Shown here piece after piece: positions 1-37,841 of a stretch of DNA of 64,000 nucleotides; position 1 is the stretch's first letter; the number at the start of each line of letters is the position of its first letter. A program made the translations under genes and the position numbers. The notes beneath the pieces are model-generated. The model was not told where the DNA came from. It did not search any database and saw only the letters and a program-made list of their open reading frames with translations. Source of the stretch: a virus. The stretch spans positions 1 through 64,000 of IMG/VR virus record IMGVR_UViG_3300043251_000023. The stretch is one strand, 5' to 3'.

Positions 1-151
1 GGAGATTGTCGAGGCCATGCGGGCGGACTGGCCGGAGGGTGCCTTGTGGCCGCTTACGCGCGCGGTAATCATCGAACGCTTTGCCCGCTGAGCCGAAAAT
101 ATCCCCACCTGTTCTTGCCCGGACTCGCCGACTCTGTTACGCCCCGCCGCC

Positions 152-2593: not shown

Positions 2594-3064
2594 ATGAGCG
2601 ATCATTTTCGATCACATTGGGAACGCCGACTCGGCCGCTGCGAAAGCCCGATCGAATCGATGCTATTGGAGCAATTCTGCGCTGCGGCGGTTGAATGGGG
2701 TTACGACGTCGGCCGCGCAGTCAAGGTCCAATCCGAAACCATAGTCGTTAAGCCGCAAGCGCATGTAGATCGCTGGCGCGTCGACTTCCTGATCACCTTC
2801 GACTTTTTCGGAAGTCTGATCGAGATCATCGTCGAGTGCGACGGCCATCAATGGCACGAACGGACGAAATCGCAAGCCACGAAAGACCGCTCGCGCGACC
2901 GCGCGCTTCAATCTCTCGGCTATGAGGTTCTGCGGTTCACCGGCTCAGAGATAAACGCGGCGCCAGCTCGATGCGCCTTCGAAGTTTTGGACCGCATCAT
3001 GGAGTTTCAAACCGCGTGCTTTGTCCACGCCGTCGAAACGGCAGAACGGAAAGACGCGCGATGA
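2594..3064 (+). CDS. DUF559/Vsr-like endonuclease
   Basis: ESPIE...RVDF...VECDGHQWH...DRSRDRALQSLGYEVLRFTGSEI. Confidence 0.85.
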   Translation: MSDHFRSHWERRLGRCESPIESMLLEQFCAAAVEWGYDVGRAVKVQSETIVVKPQAHVDRWRVDFLITFDFFGSLIEIIVECDGHQWHERTKSQATKDRSRDRALQSLGYEVLRFTGSEINAAPARCAFEVLDRIMEFQTACFVHAVETAERKDAR

Positions 3065-3753
3065 TCGATGACGATCGCCTTCCGTGGTTCCATTGCTTCC
3101 CGTCGAAGTGGCTTGATGCTCTCGGCGGTCTGCCGGCAGACCAGAAGCTCGTCTATTCGATCATGCTTTTACGCATCTACGACGCCCGCGGCGCCTGCAT
3201 GGACTCGCTCGACGCGATCGCGACCCGCTGTGGGATCAACAAGAGGCGCACGACCGACGCTTTAGACGCTCTATTCAGAGCCGGAAAATTGGTTCGAATC
3301 GAGGGCGGAATCCATAACCCAAGGGCCATCGAACATATCGAGCGCGGCAATGCCCTCCGGGCGGAGCGCCAAAGGGCCGGCGCGGGAGGCGGCAAGAGGG
3401 CGGCGGAAATTCGCAAGCAAAATCAAACAGGGCCGCCTAGCAAAGCTATAGCTAGAGGCAAGCAGAAAGAGAAAGAGGTAGAAGACTCCTTATTCCCTAA
3501 CGGGAATAAGGCGCCGGTTTTGAAAAACGGAAACACTGAAGAGGCCGATCTATTCCGCCGTGGAAAGGAAATACTCGGCCCAGAAGCGGGCGGTCTTATC
3601 AAAAAGGTTTTGAAAGCCAAAGATGGGAACGTTCCGCAGGCGCGAGCCGCAATCGAAATGGCCGTCGGAAGAAACAATCCGCGCGAATACATCGGCGGCG
3701 TGATCAGAGCCGGTAACAGAACGCACGACGACACTGTGGATGGCCGCCTATGA
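3061..3753 (+). CDS. putative replication initiator (YdaU/DUF1376-like N-terminus)
   Basis: LPWFHCFPSKWL...L...QKLVYSIMLLRIYD N-terminus; located directly before the primase-helicase. Confidence 0.6.
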   Translation: MIDDDRLPWFHCFPSKWLDALGGLPADQKLVYSIMLLRIYDARGACMDSLDAIATRCGINKRRTTDALDALFRAGKLVRIEGGIHNPRAIEHIERGNALRAERQRAGAGGGKRAAEIRKQNQTGPPSKAIARGKQKEKEVEDSLFPNGNKAPVLKNGNTEEADLFRRGKEILGPEAGGLIKKVLKAKDGNVPQARAAIEMAVGRNNPREYIGGVIRAGNRTHDDTVDGRL

Positions 3754-4061
3754 TCACCGCCGGCGAGATTCTGCGTGAGCATCGAATCGTCCTACGAGAT
3801 GAGACGATCGGCCGTCACTACGCGACCTGTCCGCAATGTTCGGCGAAACGGAAGCAGGCACACCGAAAGCTGAAATGCCTCGGCGTGACAATAAACGGCG
3901 ACGGCTTGAACTGGGGATGCAATCACTGTGGCTGGACAGGAGGGGGATTCTATGACCGGAAAAACGTTAGGCGCGCTGGGAGTGGCAGCGTTCGAGCATC
4001 GGGGCATATCTCCGGAAACGGCCGGGCGGTACGGGATATATACCGCGCGCCGGACCGATGA
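3750..4061 (+). CDS. primase zinc-binding domain encoded as a separate ORF
   Basis: CPQCS...KCL.V...WGCNHCGWTG zinc ribbon typical of T7 gp4/Twinkle N-termini. Confidence 0.75.
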   Translation: MITAGEILREHRIVLRDETIGRHYATCPQCSAKRKQAHRKLKCLGVTINGDGLNWGCNHCGWTGGGFYDRKNVRRAGSGSVRASGHISGNGRAVRDIYRAPDR

Positions 4062-5469
4062 TGGTGGTCTTGAACCGCACGAAAAAGGCAATGTCGTCGT
4101 CTTTCCGTTCTCCGACCGAGGCGCGGTCGTCAACGAAAAATATCGCGCGCCGTCGAAGAAGTTTTGGCAGCGCGCCGGCGGCAAGCGAACGTTCTGGAAC
4201 GCCGACGCTTTAGACGATCCGGCACTCGAGGACGGTCGAATGCCGCTGGTGATCACCGAGGGAGAGATCGACGCCCTGTCGGCGATCGAGTGTGGTTTTC
4301 CGCTCACCGTATCGGTTCCGGACGGGGCGCCGGGAGTGCCGGAAGGCGAAGAACCTGAGAACCTCGCGCCGCTCGACCCGAAGGCAGAGGATTCCGGAAA
4401 GTTCGAGTTTCTGTGGAACAACCGCGAGCGACTGGCGCGCGTCAAAAGGTTCGTCCTTGCCGTCGATAACGACGGACCAGGCAGACGATTGGCGGCCGAA
4501 CTCATGCGCCGGCTTTCCGCAGCCCGCTGCTCGTTTGTGATCTATCCGGACGGCTGCAAGGATCTCAACGACGTGCTGACAAAGGGCGGCGCCGAAGAGG
4601 TCGCGCGCGTCATCAATGCGGCTAAACCGTATCCGGTTCGCGGTCTTTATCGACTTTCGGAATTTCCGCAAAACGGCGCGCTGCCGACTTTTAGAACCGG
4701 ATGGTCGACGCTCAACAACAATCTTCGCTTATTCGCTGGCGAGTTCATGGTCGTCACCGGCATTCCTGGACACGGCAAATCGACATGGGTTTTGAACTTG
4801 CTTGCTGACGCCGCCGATCTTCATGGATGGCGTTCGGCGATCTTTTCACCGGAGATGCCGACTGTTCCCCAGTTGCGAGACAAGTTGCGGCGCATCACGC
4901 TTCGAGGTCCGATCGAGGGGTCGAGCCACGATATGATCGCCGAGGCCGACGAATGGATTGAGCGAAATTTCGTCTTCATTGATGTCGACCCGACCGGGAA
5001 GGACGATGAAGAGTATGATCTGGATTGGGTGCTTGATCGCGCGACCGACGCTGTTCTGCGCGATGGCGTCCGTGTGCTGGTGATCGACCCTTGGAACGAG
5101 ATCGAACACGCCAAGCGGCGAGACGAGACGATGACGGATTACATCGGTCGCGCCATCCGCGCGATGAAGCGATTTGCGCGTCTATATGAAGTTGCCGTGA
5201 TCGTGGTCGCTCATCCAACCAAAGACGTCGCCAAGGAGGGAAAAAGCCGGCCGCCGACGCTTTATGACATCGAAGGTTCGGCACACTGGTTCAACAAGTG
5301 TGATCATGGAATCGTCGTCGACTGGCCGGATTCAAACATCGCCGAAAGCGTGATCCGCGTCGCAAAGGTTCGATTCGAGGAAAGCGGCGAACGCGGTCAG
5401 GTGCGGTTAAAGTTTGACAGGTATTCGGGCCGGTATGATCTGTTGATCCGCGAGGAGACGCCGCCATGA
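3952..5469 (+). CDS. TOPRIM primase + SF4 (DnaB/T7 gp4/Twinkle-like) helicase
   Basis: ITEGEIDALS and DNDGPG TOPRIM motifs, KDLND, Walker A TGIPGHGKS, VIDPWNE, VAHP; GGAGG RBS before ATG 3952. Confidence 0.92.
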   Translation: MTGKTLGALGVAAFEHRGISPETAGRYGIYTARRTDDGGLEPHEKGNVVVFPFSDRGAVVNEKYRAPSKKFWQRAGGKRTFWNADALDDPALEDGRMPLVITEGEIDALSAIECGFPLTVSVPDGAPGVPEGEEPENLAPLDPKAEDSGKFEFLWNNRERLARVKRFVLAVDNDGPGRRLAAELMRRLSAARCSFVIYPDGCKDLNDVLTKGGAEEVARVINAAKPYPVRGLYRLSEFPQNGALPTFRTGWSTLNNNLRLFAGEFMVVTGIPGHGKSTWVLNLLADAADLHGWRSAIFSPEMPTVPQLRDKLRRITLRGPIEGSSHDMIAEADEWIERNFVFIDVDPTGKDDEEYDLDWVLDRATDAVLRDGVRVLVIDPWNEIEHAKRRDETMTDYIGRAIRAMKRFARLYEVAVIVVAHPTKDVAKEGKSRPPTLYDIEGSAHWFNKCDHGIVVDWPDSNIAESVIRVAKVRFEESGERGQVRLKFDRYSGRYDLLIREETPP

Positions 5470-5883: not shown

Positions 5884-6096
5884 ATGACCGCAGCAGACGT
5901 GCGGAGAATGTTGCAACGGGCTTGTGAAAGAGCCGGGAGCCAACGCGCATGGGCGCGTGAGCATTCGGTTTCCGTTGTTTACGTCAATGACGTTTTAAGC
6001 GGAAACCGCGAGCCTGGCCCTGCGATTTTACAAGCGTTTGGGCTGGAAGCGGAGCGGCGCACCACATATAGGAAAAAAGGGCAACCAAATGGCTGA
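5884..6096 (+). CDS. Cro/Xre-like helix-turn-helix protein
   Basis: GSQRAWAREHSVSVVYVNDVLSGNREPGPAILQAFGL HTH pattern. Confidence 0.8.
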   Translation: MTAADVRRMLQRACERAGSQRAWAREHSVSVVYVNDVLSGNREPGPAILQAFGLEAERRTTYRKKGQPNG

Positions 6097-6718
6097 GCGC
6101 ACCATCGAGATTCCTGAAATCAAACTAGACCGGATCACCGTCAAGGTCGTTGGCACGTCGCCGCTGCTCACGAATCGGTTCGGCGAAAACGCCATTACGT
6201 CCATCGAAAACAAACAACAGAAAAAGGCCAAGGGCGTGAAGGAGGCGCGCGACCCCCACGCGGAGTTTGTCGAAAAACTGCATGTCATAAAAGCAGGTAA
6301 AAGCGATCTTGATGGCACGTTCGGCTATCCGTCCATCGGCATCAAAAAGTGTCTTGTCGTTGCCGGTGGGCGGTTCGCCGACGAAAAGATGACGCATCTG
6401 CGCGGCGCGATCAACATTCTCGGCAGCCTCATCGAAATCAAATCGCCACCCCCGACCATGCGGACGGACACCGTGCGCCTGCAGGGCGGCGTGACCAGCA
6501 TCGCCTATCGGCCGTCGTTCTGGCCGTGGGAAATGGAAATTCCGGTTGTGTATAACGCAGGCATCATCGGCCCCGCGCAAATCCTCAACCTTTTCCAGAT
6601 TGCCGGTTTTGCGGTAGGATTCGGCGCATGGCGCCCCGAACTTAACGGCGTGTTCGGCCAGTTCGTTTTGAAGGATTCCGCCGAAGTCCAGACGAAAGGA
6701 CGGGCCAAGGCGGGATAA
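6089..6718 (+). CDS. stand-alone RAMP/Cas7-like RNA-binding protein (Vipr-like guide-binding effector)
   Basis: N-terminal strand ITVKVVGTSPLL, YPSIGIKKCL, YRPSF.PWEMEIPV and a C-terminal glycine-rich loop AGFAVGFGAWRPELNGVFGQF; no other cas genes; directly followed by the pentamer array. Confidence 0.8.
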   Translation: MAERTIEIPEIKLDRITVKVVGTSPLLTNRFGENAITSIENKQQKKAKGVKEARDPHAEFVEKLHVIKAGKSDLDGTFGYPSIGIKKCLVVAGGRFADEKMTHLRGAINILGSLIEIKSPPPTMRTDTVRLQGGVTSIAYRPSFWPWEMEIPVVYNAGIIGPAQILNLFQIAGFAVGFGAWRPELNGVFGQFVLKDSAEVQTKGRAKAG

Positions 6719-7251
6719 AACACAAGAGCAGACTCGATTTGCTATGCGTTGAACAGACCTTAAGACAGTCAACGAGCATCTGTAGCGAAAAGAAAACAGG
6801 CGCATAGATCGGAGCGGACTCGACAACACTACACAACAAGAGAAAAGTTTAATCCATTTGCCAATAGAGGAGATTAGCAAACTAAGGACGCGACGAGAAT
6901 CGAGAACACGCGAAATGCTTTGTCCATTTGCTATAAGAAAAGCTGAGAGCAAATTTGCGTAGCCTAGCCTTGACACGCAAAGCATCGACGTGAGAACCGC
7001 TGAAATGAAAAGTTTAATTCCTTTGCCATCTGAATGGAGCCGACACGAGGCGAGGCGCGGAGAAAACCCGTGACGACAAATGAAAAGTTTAAACAATTTG
7101 GGCATTTGATAAGAAAAGCTTAGCTGTGACGACAATGGACAACCGAACAACCGAGAAGAAATGTTTTTGTTTGGCCCTTTATCAAAAGAGCCGATTTGCG
7201 TTGCAGAGACGCGCGTAGAAATGTCGTCACGACAATCGAGATGAAATGTCT
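6715..7251 (+). repeat. array of seven tracts of 5-nt units (NG[A/C] or AC[A/C] triplet + variable NN), mostly separated by conserved NGAAA-WGYTT + ~10-nt ...TTTG linkers
   Basis: by my count 71 of 91 core pentamers have G at position 2, 15 more start AC, and none has G at position 3; phase is unbroken over 6781-7090; linkers AATCCATTTG 6851, TGTCCATTTG 6921, AATTCCTTTG 7016, AAACAATTTG 7091, degenerate at 7167. Confidence 0.92.
6715..7251 (+). ncRNA. putative multi-guide precursor RNA (gapped-code guides) for the adjacent RAMP protein
   Basis: the variable dinucleotides of six tracts decode to conserved transposase or mobile-element protein motifs; transcription and processing are not shown. 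Confidence 0.75.
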
Positions 7252-8307
7252 ATATCGATCAAAGAGTATTTTGCGCTGGCTGGAACGTCGTTCACCAACG
7301 ACGATGCGCGGGTTATCGGCCCGGTTCTCCAAGAGATTGCCACCGATGGTAGCGTGACCGCAGAGGCGGTCGTGCAGGCCGCGCATTCCGCAAATAGCCC
7401 ACTGCGCAGCTATTTCGAGTGGGACGACAAAAAGGCTGCTCACCAATATCGAGTCGGCCAAGCCAACTACATGATAAACGCTGTCCGCGTGCGCTTTGTC
7501 AGCGCCGGCAAGGAATATGCGACGCGCGCTTATCGGGTTGTCACCAAGCAGTACGAAGGCGACGCGGCCGGATGGGATGAAGACGAGCGATCCGTCGAAA
7601 TCGTGCGGTCGCCGAACGATGAAATCTTGGCCGCGCTGCGGGAGGTTGATGCGTGGCGCGTCAAATATGCTCACCTTTCCACCTTCCAGAATGCCAAATC
7701 GTTTTTGGTGCCGATCTTCAACCAGATTGCCGAGTTCCGCGCGGATTTGGCTGGCAAAGAGGCTATGCCCATAGACGGGGCGCTCGGCGAGCTTACCCAA
7801 TGGGTTCAAAAATATGGCGACGCCGATGCCGTGTCCGCCTCTGCTCTCCTTGGCGAGCACATTCACTACATGGTGGAGGCGATCAACGAGTCCTGGGAAA
7901 ACTTTGGACGCTTCAAGCATGATCCGGCATTGCGTCGGTCTCTGGTGGAGGAAGAAAACGAGGAATTGCGCGAGCGCGTCCGGATTTTGGAGGAGATGTT
8001 AAACGGGAAGGAAAGTCTGCCGCCGGAATTGAGGTTGACCGCAAGCGAGGAGCGCGTCGTGTCAGCCCTGCTGTCGCGAGACGTTATGACCAAAGAGGCC
8101 ATTTCGATGGCGCTCTATTCCGACCGCCCCGATGTTGCGCCAGAATTAAAAATTGTCGACGTATTCGTGTGCAAAATCAGAGCGAAGATTGAATCGCACG
8201 GGTTGAAAATCGAAACGCATTGGGGACGCGGCTATTCGATGCCGGCGGAGAGTAAGCAAGAGCTGCGCGGCATGATCGCCGCGCGCAAAGAGGCCGCAGC
8301 GGCATGA
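7246..8307 (+). CDS. RAMP-associated partner domain fused to an OmpR/PhoB (CtrA-like) winged-helix DNA-binding domain
   Basis: N-terminal VTAEAVVQAA...SPLRSYFEWDDKKAAHQYR motif; C-terminal LTASE...LYSDRPDVAPELKIVDVFVCKIRAKI...IETHWGRGY. Confidence 0.75.
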   Translation: MSISIKEYFALAGTSFTNDDARVIGPVLQEIATDGSVTAEAVVQAAHSANSPLRSYFEWDDKKAAHQYRVGQANYMINAVRVRFVSAGKEYATRAYRVVTKQYEGDAAGWDEDERSVEIVRSPNDEILAALREVDAWRVKYAHLSTFQNAKSFLVPIFNQIAEFRADLAGKEAMPIDGALGELTQWVQKYGDADAVSASALLGEHIHYMVEAINESWENFGRFKHDPALRRSLVEEENEELRERVRILEEMLNGKESLPPELRLTASEERVVSALLSRDVMTKEAISMALYSDRPDVAPELKIVDVFVCKIRAKIESHGLKIETHWGRGYSMPAESKQELRGMIAARKEAAAA

Positions 8308-32797: not shown

Positions 32798-33700
32798 ATG
32801 GTCGCGTCCGTCACCTTCCAGCCCTACCTGCAGAGCGGCGGCAACGCTGGTCTCTTCAACGTTCAGTCCAGCGGCTATCGGCAGGGCACGGCGATGCCCG
32901 ATCCCTCGACCCGCTATCGCTTGCGGGGTGGCATCTTGGCGACGACCGAGACGCTACCGATGTGGGGAGGGGTCGGCGTCTACGCGAACGTCCCTGGCGG
33001 CGGCTATCCCGGAACGCAGGGCGTTCCTGGTTCCCCGAGCGGTTCTCTCGGTCCGATCCTCGGCCGCGCTACGGCGCTGACCGGTACCACAAAGCTCGCC
33101 GGCTTCTCAGTCTTCGACGAAGCCTACGGCATGATCACGTCGCCGCAATCTCCGGTCCCGCTGGCTGGCTCCGGAATGCAGGTCAACTACTACCCGCTCG
33201 GCTCGCTGGCGCGCATCGTGGTCGCCTGCGATCCGTCCCTGACGTCGCTCCGCGGTGGCACGACCTACCAGCCGGCGGTCGCGTGGGACTTCACGAACCA
33301 GCTTCTCATCCCCGAACTCGGTACGCTCGTGATCTCGTCCGGCACCTACGTCTCCGCCACCGGCGTGATCACGCTGACGATGGCGGTCGCTCCCACCTTC
33401 AGCCCCGGCGACTCGCTCACTCTTGCATCGCTCACCGGCACCGGCGCCTTTGCCACGCTCGACGGCACCTGGACGGTTCTGACCGTTGTTGGTTCCGTGG
33501 TCACTTTGCAGGGTCCGGTCGCGGCTGGCGCGGCGACGATCACCGGCGGCAACGCCACGGTCGGCGGCTCGGCCAGCCAGGCGCTCCCGGTCAACGTACT
33601 CGACATCAATCCGTCGAACTCCGAGACCGTCGTCTACAACTCGACGACCGGCTTCGCGACGTACAACTATTCCGGCGCCGCAGCCCTTATCCAGATTTGA
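32798..33700 (+). CDS. capsid decoration/minor capsid protein
   Basis: between scaffold and major capsid; LPMWGGVG, PQSPVP, WDFTNQ. Confidence 0.7.
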   Translation: MVASVTFQPYLQSGGNAGLFNVQSSGYRQGTAMPDPSTRYRLRGGILATTETLPMWGGVGVYANVPGGGYPGTQGVPGSPSGSLGPILGRATALTGTTKLAGFSVFDEAYGMITSPQSPVPLAGSGMQVNYYPLGSLARIVVACDPSLTSLRGGTTYQPAVAWDFTNQLLIPELGTLVISSGTYVSATGVITLTMAVAPTFSPGDSLTLASLTGTGAFATLDGTWTVLTVVGSVVTLQGPVAAGAATITGGNATVGGSASQALPVNVLDINPSNSETVVYNSTTGFATYNYSGAAALIQI

Positions 33701-36298: not shown

Positions 36299-36808
36299 AT
36301 GCCCATACTTCATCTCGGCGTGATCGACATTGCGTACATTGCGCCGCAGCCTACTGGCCCGCAGCGGAAAGCGCCGAAGCGTGTCCCGAAGAAGCCGCGG
36401 GCAAAAATCCACGCGAGATGGCGGGCAAAGTACGCAAACCTGACGACTGGCGACGTGGCTGAGATACTCGAGGCCAAATATCATATCTTTCAAAATTTCT
36501 ACCAGATCCACGAGCAGGACGTAGCGAACGACGTGACCGATTCAATGCAGGGCGCGGTCGAGAGTTATCTCATGGGCGCGCCGCTGAACCTCAATCCGTT
36601 CGGCTCGGCAACGTCGTCGATTGAGAACCGGATGAAGCAGTTCTTGGCGAACAGCGAGATGGAAAAGATCGGCTTCCCCGGCGTGCCGACGCAGGCGGCG
36701 CTCGAAGGTTTTAATCCGCGGTTCAAGAATCCGCGCACCGGCGTTCGCAGACCGTCGTTCATAGCGACAGGCTTGCTACAGGCGTCGATGACGGCGTGGG
36801 TGGACTGA
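36299..36808 (+). CDS. neck/tail completion protein
   Basis: VAEILE..Y; RPSFIATGLLQAS C-terminal motif. Confidence 0.65.
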   Translation: MPILHLGVIDIAYIAPQPTGPQRKAPKRVPKKPRAKIHARWRAKYANLTTGDVAEILEAKYHIFQNFYQIHEQDVANDVTDSMQGAVESYLMGAPLNLNPFGSATSSIENRMKQFLANSEMEKIGFPGVPTQAALEGFNPRFKNPRTGVRRPSFIATGLLQASMTAWVD

Positions 36809-36809
36809 C

Positions 36810-37841
36810 ATGGCCGGCGCACAGGAGGCCCTCACCGCGAAGAACCCGATGGCCGCCGATCTGGCGGCCGGGGTCGAAGCCTTATCGCGCGTCCAGGAGA
36901 TCACGTTCACGCGGTACATCCGGCTCGTGTTGCCTATCGATGGATTCGTATTTTGGGTGAACGCTTCAATCGTCAGCCGGTCGGCGCTGGTAAATGCAGC
37001 CCTCGTGAACAAGGTAGAGCCGAATCAGTCTCCCGAAACGGTCGTCGATGCGCCGACGTTCAATGCCAAAGGATCGCTGCACTACGCGACGGACCTGCGG
37101 CAGGAGGCCGGCGAGTATTACGGCGCGGAGCGGATGGTCTTCACGGCCGAAGAGCCGGTGAACGATCTTTCGGCCATTGCGCCGGGGACGCTGTGGATTG
37201 GCGAGTTTGAGGGCAAGCGGTTTGCGTTCTCGAGCCGGTCGTCGTTCTACATGCAGTCCGATCTTTTTCACTACGTCGGGTTTGCGGTTTATCCGGACAT
37301 GGAGACGCAGATTATCGACGACCTCTCGGGCTTCGACTCGACGAACGTGATCGTCTCCAACAGCCTCCCGGCGTGGCTGGCGCTCAACGGCCGCAACCCG
37401 GTCTATGGCTTCAACACGCTCGGGATCACGCTTTTCCCGTCGTTCCTGTCCCCGCAGAACGAGCCGCCGCCGTTCGGAACGGTCGACATCCCGCCGGAGT
37501 CCACTGAGGCTTTGGCGTCGGCGCCGACGATTGACCCGGCAACCTCGACGCATGTCCAGCTTTGCGCGGAGACGGTCAAGATCACGCTATGGGGCACGCG
37601 GAATTTCAGGGCGCTCGATTTTGTCGATGCCGTCTATCAGTACAGTTCCGACTTTGAGCCGTTCGGGATTATGAACATGCCGGTGGTGCAGGACGAGAAA
37701 CGGACGCAAGCCGAGCTCGGGACCATTGCGATGAAGAAGTCCGTGACTTTCAAGGTGAGCTATTTGCAGAACCGCATAAACGACATCGCGCGGCAGTACA
37801 TCGCCAGCGCGATCCCTTCGTTCTACATCGGCAAAGCCTAG
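36810..37841 (+). CDS. head-closure/tail-terminator-like protein
   Basis: 343 aa in the neck region; LPIDGFVFWV. Confidence 0.55.
   Translation: MAGAQEALTAKNPMAADLAAGVEALSRVQEITFTRYIRLVLPIDGFVFWVNASIVSRSALVNAALVNKVEPNQSPETVVDAPTFNAKGSLHYATDLRQEAGEYYGAERMVFTAEEPVNDLSAIAPGTLWIGEFEGKRFAFSSRSSFYMQSDLFHYVGFAVYPDMETQIIDDLSGFDSTNVIVSNSLPAWLALNGRNPVYGFNTLGITLFPSFLSPQNEPPPFGTVDIPPESTEALASAPTIDPATSTHVQLCAETVKITLWGTRNFRALDFVDAVYQYSSDFEPFGIMNMPVVQDEKRTQAELGTIAMKKSVTFKVSYLQNRINDIARQYIASAIPSFYIGKA

What the first reader, a model, noticed from the sequence alone, without database searches (positions are those of the whole stretch)
6781..6850. Guide 2 decodes (sense) to IS1595 motif S-K-K-G-I-S-A-L-Q-L-Q-R
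NN series AG AA AA GG AT TC GC CT CA CT CA AG = [SR][KN][KN]G[IM]SAL[QH]L[QH][RS]. This is the motif immediately upstream of the guide-1 site in IS1595 transposases (recalled SKKGISALQLQR), on the opposite strand. Two independent tracts converging on adjacent conserved segments is hard to attribute to chance.
Basis: partly seen in the sequence, partly recalled or inferred. Interest (0 to 1): 0.85.

Follow-up and report, generated by a model that had tools for sequence, protein, structure and literature searches.

The report
Phage VIPR guide aimed at IS1595
This stretch is a guide RNA gene of a phage VIPR system, a recently described relative of CRISPR that reads only the first two bases of each codon, and it is aimed at a conserved motif of IS1595-family transposase genes.

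Summary
Window 6779-6843 (+) is 13 pentamers of the form NN + 3 scaffold bases (mostly AGA, CGA, GGA, ACA). All 4 are in frame in IS1595 transposases (PF12762). The neighbouring tract, 6713-6777, reads R-x-L-G-V-T-Y-K-T-A-W-F-M on the other strand, the next motif of the same gene. Only a 1-nt skip gives matches. The upstream 209-aa gene has a Cas7-like RAMP fold, and its family profile hits the solved SUSP1 Vipr protein. Relatives in actinophages sit beside canonical GGY/NN arrays. This is therefore a VIPR locus (Vipr + vrRNA array + vap-like gene), a kind described in 2026 preprints. Three things look particular to it:
- a non-canonical scaffold (H-S-M, with only the second G kept) that goes with a D-to-A change in the G-loop;
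- IS1595 transposase genes as the natural target;
- two staggered guides that meet at one Arg codon on opposite strands.

Expression, processing and silencing were not tested.

The parts
6089..6718 (+). vipr gene: 209-aa RAMP (Cas7-like) protein, the predicted filament-forming partner of the guides
   Evidence: No Pfam hit; phrog_4652, unknown function. AlphaFold2 model pLDDT 76.7, pTM 0.71. The 10 best-ranked Foldseek PDB hits are chains of type III CRISPR (Csm/Cmr) effector complexes, E 1.3e-5 to 1.4e-4, prob 1.00. The family profile hits PDB 36pp_D 'SUSP1 Vipr protein', E 5.6e-6. Homologues at 32-33% identity in 34 phage records lie beside GGY/NN arrays in the two loci examined.
NN read antisense = R-x-L-G-V-T-Y-K-[ST]-A-W-F-M of IS1595 transposases. 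It begins at the stop codon of vipr.
   Evidence: Profile decoding score 37.1 against a control maximum of 23.7 (n = 15,210); the same tract scores 39.2 in L001 and 41.1 in L002. NN match of 80% or more in 5 of 30 independent IS1595 loci with a 1-nt skip, and in 0 with 0, 2 or 3 skips.
6779..6843 (+). vrRNA tract T1 (the finding, 'guide 2'): 13 pentamers. NN read sense = S-S-K-K-G-I-S-A-L-Q-L-Q-R. It is offset by 1 nt from T0 (staggered).
   Evidence: Profile score 39.7. 26 of 26 NN bases match on L005, L006, L007 and L008. NN match of 80% or more in 5 of 30 independent loci with a 1-nt skip only.
6844..6863 (+). Conserved 3' tail box after T1 (AAAGTTTAATCCATTTGCCA); it recurs after each tract
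   Evidence: Direct-repeat family D1, 4 copies with spacings of 70, 95 and 75 nt. Alignment of 12 tails from 3 phages shows conserved sequence but no consensus structure.
6864..6913 (+). Candidate vrRNA tract T2 (10 pentamers), target unknown
   Evidence: Same pentamer form. No site with 80% or more NN match in the loci held and none at 75% or more in the own genome. 0 exact hits in IMG/VR.
6934..7003 (+). vrRNA tract T3 (14 pentamers): NN read sense = Y-K-x-A-F-V-L-x-H-K-I-R-E-A, a third motif of IS1595-family transposases
   Evidence: 24 of 28 NN bases match, in frame, on L069 (YKTAFVLSHKIREA) and L068 (YKSAFVLAHKLREA). The L069 ORF is PF12762, E 1.8e-41. Profile score 25.3, just above the control maximum of 23.7.
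7024..7083 (+). Candidate vrRNA tract T4 (12 pentamers), target unresolved; it partly resembles GGKERNK of IS1595
   Evidence: score 19.6, within the control range. 0 of 301 genomes with up to 3 mismatches. 0 hits in IMG/VR.
7125..7249 (+). Two further, degenerate candidate tracts (T5 7125-7159, T6 7185-7249) in another register. The last one runs into the start codon of the next gene.
   Evidence: No target found.
7246..8307 (+). vap-like accessory gene (353 aa): N-terminal domain shared with the genes next to vipr in actinophages, plus a C-terminal winged helix
   Evidence: Trans_reg_C, E 2.1e-8, residues 261-331; phrog_15946. BLASTP to UmaThurman gp41 E 5e-14 and to Saal gp52 E 3e-11.

Best explanation
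The tract is the programmable part of a vrRNA, the guide RNA of a VIPR (Viral Interference Programmable Repeat) system carried by a 73.5-kb soil phage.

Shown here:
- A small RAMP protein gene (vipr, 6089-6718) is followed by an array of about 7 pentamer tracts, each ended by a conserved tail, and then by a vap-like DNA-binding gene.
- In each pentamer two bases (NN) vary freely and three are scaffold (H-S-M, mostly AGA, CGA, GGA or ACA).
- The NN series of T1 matches codon positions 1-2 of SSKKGISALQLQR in IS1595-family transposase genes. T0 matches the next 13 codons on the other strand, and T3 matches the following motif.
- Only a one-base skip gives matches.

Inferred from the published work on the SUSP1 and P. 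fulva systems:
- One Vipr protomer binds each pentamer, hides the scaffold trinucleotide and presents NN.
- The filament pairs with double-stranded DNA while flipping out every third target base, which here is the wobble base. It forms an R-loop triplex and blocks transcription.

The phage would thus silence genes for IS1595-type transposases, on host-resident IS copies or on a competing mobile element that uses such a transposase. Synonymous mutations would not let the target escape.
For: Observation and target: (4 of 4 database hits in frame in PF12762 proteins).

Second and third guides on the same gene family.

Skip rule: for both T0 and T1, 5 of 30 independent IS1595 loci have 80% or more NN match at skip 1, and 0 of 30 at skips 0, 2 or 3. 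NN series in shuffled order reach at most 20 of 26.

No self-target.

Protein: RAMP fold. The family profile hits the solved SUSP1 Vipr at E 5.6e-6, aligning YRP and G.G.WRP. Homologues in Gordonia phage UmaThurman and Mycobacterium phage Saal sit beside canonical GGY/NN staggered arrays.

Accessory gene: it is homologous to the vipr neighbours in those phages and carries a winged helix.

Turnover: phages with 98% and 91% identical Vipr keep T0 but carry other tracts after it.

Published mechanism: bioRxiv 10.64898/2026.04.26.720920 (Results, Discussion and methods sections read) and 10.64898/2026.04.26.720927 (Results part 1).
Against: The scaffold is not the canonical GGY. In 82 pentamers the first scaffold base is A39/C19/T19/G5, the second G61/C17, and the third A60/C18/G0. 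The third base is therefore mostly a purine, whereas the SUSP1 pocket is reported to exclude purines.

No database gene matches all three guides perfectly, and no host is known. T1's perfect hits (L005-L008) match T0 at under 80%.

Targets of T2, T4, T5 and T6 were not found.

The tail shows no predicted conserved structure, and the array as RNA folds no better than shuffles (z = 0.02).

T0 has no tail of its own.

There is no expression data.
Confidence: 0.9

Rival explanations
1. The tract is a binding platform for a ring or filament RNA-binding protein in the manner of TRAP (triplets every 5 nt). In that case the NN dinucleotides are uninformative spacers and the IS1595 reading is a coincidence.
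For: The form (a conserved trinucleotide plus a 2-nt spacer, 12-13 times) resembles TRAP sites; that resemblance is recalled, not tested. The RNA is predicted to be unstructured.
Against: The NN series finds IS1595 genes and nothing else, in frame, 4 of 4. Two more tracts read neighbouring motifs. The adjacent protein is a Vipr homologue, not a TRAP-like protein.
Confidence: 0.02
2. It is a VIPR array, but the IS1595-directed guides serve as decoy guides rather than as silencers. They would send Vipr filaments, the phage's own or a competitor's, to harmless multi-copy host sites, as reported for satellite-encoded solo vrRNAs that point to host REP elements.
For: IS1595 genes are multi-copy in many genomes: up to 12 scored matches per genome, and 84 of 301 genomes carry one (the tally includes the unpublished G241). 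The decoy principle is described in 10.64898/2026.10.15.759431 (abstract and passages).
Against: These guides sit in the array next to the phage's own vipr and vap, not as solo vrRNAs in a parasite. T0 is kept in all 3 related phages. At least three guides converge on the most conserved coding motifs, which fits escape-proof silencing.
Confidence: 0.1
3. The array is a set of tandem duplicated translation-start regions or tiny leader ORFs of the downstream gene, or iterons of a replication origin. The tails would then be the functional parts.
For: Each tail carries AAATG, and short ORFs of 8-22 codons start there (read). The last tail supplies the start codon of the 353-aa gene. The array lies about 1.2 kb downstream of the replication genes.
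Against: The peptides are not conserved between units or phages. This does not explain the 5-nt period, the NN code or the IS1595 matches. No promoter-like sites were found.
Confidence: 0.03

Closest known systems
VIPR systems (Vipr + vrRNA + vap), type II of Escherichia phage SUSP1 and the P. fulva prophage; bioRxiv 10.64898/2026.04.26.720920 and 10.64898/2026.04.26.720927
   Same: A small stand-alone RAMP protein in a phage. Guides of 9-16 tandem pentamers with two variable and three scaffold bases, followed by a conserved tail. Targets read with one skipped base that falls on the codon wobble position. Targets on either strand. No self-targets. An adjacent DNA-binding accessory gene. Guide content turns over between close relatives.
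   Different: The scaffold is H-S-M (AGA, CGA, GGA, ACA) instead of GGY; only the second position keeps G. The G-loop has A where SUSP1 has D177, the residue reported to read the first G. The vap-like protein has an added winged-helix domain. The natural targets found are IS1595-family transposase genes rather than satellite or prophage genes. No pseudoknot or other tail structure is predicted.
Non-canonical VIPR arrays: NNNGG, YNNNG and NNNNG repeats (10.64898/2026.04.26.720920, methods); GAC/NN, CAC/NN, WGT/NN and TGH/NN clusters (10.64898/2026.10.21.760802, passages only)
   Same: A 5-nt period, a variable NN, a divergent scaffold trinucleotide and a Vipr-like fold next to the array.
   Different: In the papers' notation this array is M-N-N-H-G, closest to the NNNNG class. 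The trinucleotides named in the text I could read do not include xGA or ACA. The figures and data files that list all the motifs (fig. S17, data S4, Fig. S10) were not available, so this clade may already be listed there.
Staggered vrRNA arrays (fig. S18 legend of 10.64898/2026.04.26.720920) and the actinophage arrays seen here (UmaThurman, Saal)
   Same: T0 and T1 abut with a 1-nt register shift and no tail between them, like the register-shifted GGY/NN runs in L082 and L083.
   Different: Here the two staggered guides address adjacent sites of one gene on opposite strands, and their 3' ends meet at the same Arg codon. I found no statement of such a pairing in the text I read.
Class 1 CRISPR-Cas backbone (Cas7/Csm3/Cmr4 with crRNA)
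   Same: RAMP fold with a G-loop, and one protomer per repeat unit of the guide as reported for Vipr. Periodic interruption of guide-target pairing. Best structural matches are chains of type III CRISPR (Csm/Cmr) effector complexes.
   Different: No CRISPR repeats or spacers and no other cas genes. The period is 5 rather than 6. Two paired bases per unit rather than five, and the target is shorter than the guide (3 nt per 5 nt).

Membership tests
VIPR system | Vipr protein: small (about 20 kDa) stand-alone RAMP homologue with RRM core, G-loop and thumb | tested here: met
   209 aa. AlphaFold2 pLDDT 76.7. The 10 best-ranked Foldseek hits are chains of type III CRISPR (Csm/Cmr) effector complexes, prob 1.00. 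The family profile hits PDB 36pp_D 'SUSP1 Vipr protein', E 5.6e-6, over 57 residues that include YRP and G.G.WRP.
VIPR system | vrRNA with 9-16 tandem pentamers that alternate a scaffold trinucleotide and a hypervariable NN | tested here: met
   T0 and T1 have 13 units each and T3 has 14. NN positions are near-uniform in base use, while scaffold positions 4 and 5 are 74% G and 73% A.
VIPR system (canonical, type II) | Scaffold trinucleotide is GGY | tested here: not met
   The scaffold is H-S-M. The discovery paper accepts 'a related consensus' and lists NNNGG, YNNNG and NNNNG repeats. GGY therefore defines the canonical types, not the family. This locus is a VIPR but not of the canonical GGY kind.
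VIPR system | Target read with a 1-nt skip, with the skipped base on the codon wobble position and either strand usable | tested here: met
   5 of 30 independent IS1595 loci reach 80% or more NN match at skip 1, and 0 of 30 at skips 0, 2 or 3, for both T0 (antisense) and T1 (sense). All sites are in frame. This is a computational test only.
VIPR system | Invariable 3' tail with a conserved secondary structure | tested here: inconclusive
   The tail sequence is conserved in 12 units of 3 phages. RNAalifold predicts 0 pairs. T0 has no tail.
VIPR system | Adjacent vap accessory gene with a predicted DNA-interacting function | tested here: met
   The 353-aa neighbour has a winged helix. Its N-domain is homologous to the vipr neighbours in UmaThurman and Saal. 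Which of vap1-6 it corresponds to could not be checked.
VIPR system | Guides do not target their own genome | tested here: met
   0 sites with up to 3 mismatches. No site with 75% or more NN match for T0-T4 and T6 in the 73.5-kb genome. No PF12762 in the genome.
VIPR system | vrRNAs are expressed, processed to about 100 nt and bound by Vipr; the complex binds dsDNA and silences transcription | not testable with these tools
   No RNA run holds the stretch. There is no biochemistry.
CRISPR-Cas | Array of direct repeats (about 25-40 nt) with contiguous spacers, plus further cas genes | tested here: not met
   No such repeats were found. The neighbouring genes are replication genes, an HTH protein and the vap-like gene. 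PADLOC gave no hit for 3 neighbours. Pairing is non-contiguous.
TIGR-Tas | Array with an 18-nt period; dual-spacer guides and a Nop-domain Tas protein (recalled, not checked here) | tested here: not met
   The period is 5 nt and the partner is a RAMP. Only the use of both DNA strands is similar.

The most novel reading that the evidence does not exclude
This phage clade runs a relaxed-scaffold VIPR. Only the second scaffold G is kept, and the G-loop aspartate that reads the first G is replaced by alanine. Its natural job would be to police IS1595-family transposases, either host insertion sequences or a parasite element that moves with such a transposase. It would use pairs of staggered guides that clamp adjacent 13-codon sites on opposite strands, with their 3' ends meeting at one codon. 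That could match the 3'-to-3' filament dimer seen by cryo-EM for SUSP1. If so, this would be the first case of phage RNA-guided silencing of transposons. It would also give a natural experiment on how Vipr reads its scaffold.
Probability: 0.4. Interest if true: 0.65.

Novelty: new member of a known kind. Interest (0 to 1): 0.5.

Why it matters
VIPR was described only in 2026, and its natural targets are known for few clades. This locus adds four things.

1. A clear natural target outside phage and satellite genes. At least three guides in one array read the most conserved helix-turn-helix motifs of IS1595 transposases, which points to conflict between phages and transposons, or satellites that use such transposases.

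2. A scaffold variant paired with a specific G-loop substitution, D177 to A. This gives a direct hypothesis for how scaffold specificity is encoded and could be re-engineered.

3. A natural example of two staggered guides addressing both strands of one site.

4. It shows that a reader with only raw sequence could recover the code unaided, so such arrays can be found by periodicity plus codon decoding. Several actinophage 'hypothetical proteins' are probably mis-called vrRNA arrays.

Tried and rejected
I first read the tract as codon + GA/CA (triplets). All 12 triplets do translate to SKKGISALQLQR. But the third bases are simply A-rich scaffold, my rough estimate for agreement by composition alone is p about 0.05, and they match real genes in only 4-5 of 12 codons. 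I dropped this reading in favour of NN + 3.

I doubted on geometric grounds that one RAMP protomer could bind each pentamer. The published structures show that it does, so the doubt was withdrawn.

Searches that found nothing useful:
- Rfam gave only 3 sub-threshold matches, E 7.7-9.5.
- There are no tRNAs in the window.
- There are no promoter-like sites, and 1 terminator-like site on the - strand.
- PADLOC gave no hits for the 3 proteins sent.
- The tail-box pattern found 37 IMG/VR loci. Only the 2 from the contigs already known as L001 and L002 show the period (best window 9-10 of 12 pentamers, against 4-6 in the other 35).
- The search for related loci returned the same 4 relatives whether given the single protein or the alignment.
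- The T4 pattern gave 0 of 301 genomes with up to 3 mismatches.
- The T2 and T4 patterns gave 0 exact hits in IMG/VR.

Weak decodings not counted as targets: FPDEdAA, kCqdCRh and GGKerrg score within or just above the control range and are probably driven by GA-rich registers. An 8-residue BLOSUM scan gave many hits at noise level.

No RNA holder was listed for the stretch: 7 runs, all DNA.

The contigs of the 156 protein homologues therefore could not be inspected.

Supplementary files and figures of the four preprints were not seen. Data S3 and S4, fig. S17 and Fig. S10 may already list this clade, its motif or transposase targets.

The statement that IS1595 or transposase targets are not in print rests on three things only: search (0 papers with IS1595 + guide RNA + phage), and term look-ups in the main text of two of the four preprints. 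In the first, 'transposase' occurs once, in another sense. In the second it does not occur. 'IS1595' does not occur in either.

The tally of 84 of 301 genomes with PF12762 includes the unpublished genome G241. Its locus L072 was left out of the gene set, the profile and the 30-locus skip-rule test. It was still among the 81 loci scanned, where no listed hit fell on it. No other claim rests on it.

For the 23-gene profile I kept only ORFs that passed a zinc-ribbon plus DE[TSM] filter. That left 23 of the 34 loci considered. L006 and 10 others were dropped by the filter, and L050 duplicates L005.

Full report
WHAT IS THERE. The window is the first 64 kb of a complete 73.5-kb phage genome with direct terminal repeats. 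Between a 209-aa gene (6089-6718) and a 353-aa gene (7246-8307) lies a 527-nt intergenic region, 6719-7245. It is T-poor on the + strand and has a 5-nt period almost throughout. The finding's tract reads TCtgt AGcga AAaga AAaca GGcgc ATaga TCgga GCgga CTcga CAaca CTaca CAaca AGaga (6779-6843). In the whole window, runs of 5 or more NNN[GC]A pentamers occur 4 times on the + strand, 3 of them here, and never on the - strand. The region holds about seven such tracts. Each is followed by a conserved box, AAATG(A)AAAGTTT..CCATTTGCCA. Box-to-box spacings are 70, 95 and 75 nt, all multiples of five.

THE DECODING IS REAL. It found nothing in the phage itself with up to 3 mismatches and nothing in IMG/VR. 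It found one place in 596 Gb of prokaryotic genomes (about 0.004 expected by chance) and three metagenome contigs. In all 4 of 4 the match is in frame and reads SKKG[IM]SALQLQR. All four ORFs are IS1595-family transposases (PF12762, E 1.6e-24 to 1.5e-42; the zinc ribbon PF12760 is also present in the three that include the N-terminus). L006 and L008 are the same gene. The third bases of the tract's triplets agree with the genes in only 4-5 of 12 codons. So the dinucleotides carry the information and the wobble base is skipped.

MORE GUIDES ON THE SAME GENE FAMILY. I took IS1595 genes from 301 genomes of the class of the one genome hit. Of these, 84 carry PF12762 over the cut-off (the tally includes the unpublished G241, whose locus I excluded from the gene set, the profile and the skip-rule test). 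I then built a 23-protein profile. Scoring every register and both orientations of the arrays against it, with reversed and pentamer-shuffled arrays as controls (n = 15,210, maximum 23.7), gave these results:
- Tract T1 scores 39.7.
- Tract T0 (6713-6777) scores 37.1 in antisense as R-x-L-G-V-T-Y-K-T-A-W-F-M.
- The same T0 is present in the two closest phages, scoring 39.2 and 41.1.

T0 starts at the stop codon of the 209-aa gene and abuts T1 with a 1-nt register shift. T1 ends and T0 begins on the same Arg codon, on opposite strands, so together they cover 25 consecutive codons.

A third tract, T3 (6934-7003, 14 units, sense), matches 24 of 28 NN bases in frame on two other IS1595 genes, reading YKTAFVLSHKIREA and YKSAFVLAHKLREA. 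All three sites lie in the segment between the zinc ribbon and the DDE domain. Targets of T2, T4, T5 and T6 were not found.

THE SKIP RULE. I tested 30 IS1595 loci chosen only by their Pfam domain. T0 and T1 each reach 80% or more NN match in 5 of 30 loci when one target base is skipped per unit. They reach it in 0 of 30 with 0, 2 or 3 skipped bases. NN series in shuffled order reach at most 20 of 26. Three loci (L051, L076, L077) are matched by both guides.

THE PROTEIN PARTNER. The 209-aa protein has no Pfam hit and one PHROG of unknown function. Its AlphaFold2 model (pLDDT 76.7, pTM 0.71) matches chains of type III CRISPR (Csm/Cmr) effector complexes; these fill the ten best ranks, and type I, III-E and VII RAMP chains follow lower down (E down to 1.3e-5, prob 1.00). 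A profile of its family hits one PDB sequence above noise, 36pp_D 'SUSP1 Vipr protein' (E 5.6e-6), aligning ..YRP.F..W.. and G.G.WRP. tblastn finds 34 phage records at 32-33% identity: 27 Mycobacterium, 5 Gordonia, 1 Cyanophage and 1 Pseudomonas. I fetched two of them. The homologue lies beside long register-shifted arrays of canonical GGY/NN pentamers in both: Gordonia phage UmaThurman, L082 2618-2953, and Mycobacterium phage Saal, L083 1648-1846. The N-terminal domain of the 353-aa downstream protein is homologous to the genes next to the homologue in both phages (E 5e-14 and 3e-11). It also carries a C-terminal winged helix.

WHAT IT IS. These features are those of VIPR systems, reported in bioRxiv 10.64898/2026.04.26.720920. 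I read its Results, Discussion and three methods sections. It describes:
- a phage-borne ancestral RAMP (Vipr);
- vrRNAs of 9-16 pentamers with a constant GGY and variable NN, plus a tail;
- recognition of double-stranded DNA by the NN with a one-base skip that falls on codon wobble positions;
- targets on either strand, and no self-targets;
- transcriptional silencing of competing mobile elements;
- seven types, some with NNNGG, YNNNG or NNNNG repeats, staggered arrays and DNA-binding vap genes.

The structural companion paper (10.64898/2026.04.26.720927, Results part 1) shows one protomer per pentamer. The first G is read by H17 and D177. The second G sits between R138 and W178. The pyrimidine sits in a pocket that excludes purines. 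It also shows an R-loop triplex, and a class in which two filaments touch at their 3' ends. A third preprint (abstract and passages) shows escape-proof targeting of a satellite recombinase, and decoy guides. A fourth (passages only) reports 21 clusters with non-canonical trinucleotides.

HOW THIS LOCUS DIFFERS. In 82 pentamers the scaffold is H-S-M: first base A39/C19/T19/G5, second G61/C17, third A60/C18/G0. Only the second G is kept, and the third base is mostly a purine. In step with this, the G-loop reads G[FI]GAWRPE in this phage and its relatives L003 and L004. It reads GVG[DE]WRP in SUSP1, Saal and UmaThurman, which use GGY. So the residue reported to read the first G is alanine exactly where that G is no longer conserved. 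This is a correlation across few lineages, not a test. The tail is conserved in sequence but has no predicted consensus structure. As RNA the array folds no better than shuffles.

FUNCTION. It is shown that the guides match IS1595 transposase genes and nothing in the phage. Silencing by filament binding is inferred by analogy. Why a phage would do this is open. It may silence host IS copies, or it may immobilise a parasite element that moves by such a transposase, by analogy with the satellite recombinase case. A less likely possibility is a decoy function. Close relatives with 98% and 91% identical Vipr keep T0 but differ in the other tracts, which fits fast guide turnover.

VERDICT. The system is of a known, very recently described kind. 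This locus is a new member with a non-canonical scaffold and a target class that I did not find in the text I could read. Supplements and figures were not available and may change that.

Noticed in passing
L082 2618-2953 (Gordonia phage UmaThurman, NC_031249.1 about 33340-33675): Long register-shifted GGY/NN pentamer arrays lie directly after the Vipr homologue (gp39). They overlap the annotated 'gp40 hypothetical protein', which is therefore probably a vrRNA array called as a gene.
   Followed up: partly
L083 1648-1846 (Mycobacterium phage Saal, NC_023580.1 about 36629-36827): A canonical GGC/NN array in three staggered registers lies upstream of the Vipr homologue. The annotated start of gene 51 (locus position 1842) lies inside the array, while the protein match begins at 2001, so the annotated N-terminus is doubtful.
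   Followed up: partly
window 6779-7093: Tracts T1 to T4 all start in the same 5-nt phase (start coordinate mod 5 = 4), because unit lengths are 70, 95 and 75 nt. T0 and T5/T6 are in other phases. It is unexplained whether this reflects duplication history or a filament running through the tails.
   Followed up: no
window 7003-7260: Each tail contains AAATG followed by a tiny ORF (8-22 codons, not conserved). The last tail-like AAATG supplies the start codon of the vap-like gene at 7246, so the last tract overlaps the gene's translation start region.
   Followed up: no
L001 3692-3760 and L002 3688-3760: In the two closest phages T0 is followed not by T1 but by a shared non-periodic segment (..GATGTGCTTTG.AAGGACG.G.GGTCAACTGAA..) and then a tail. 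The window's T1 has replaced it, or the reverse.
   Followed up: no
L003 3689-3757: A more distant relative (62% Vipr identity) has a much shorter intergenic region with a short run of NN + xGA-like pentamers (CCgga GCctg CCgga GTcaa CCgga TCgca CCaca..). No target was sought.
   Followed up: no
window 7246-8307: The vap-like protein is a fusion. Residues about 27-152 match the 140-151-aa vipr neighbours of the actinophages, and residues 261-331 are an OmpR-type winged helix that those lack.
   Followed up: partly
window 2594-5469: The replication module lies upstream: an HNH-like protein, a DUF1376/primosomal-like protein, and a Toprim + DnaB-like primase-helicase. A 70-aa HTH protein sits at 5884-6096, just before vipr.
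   Followed up: no
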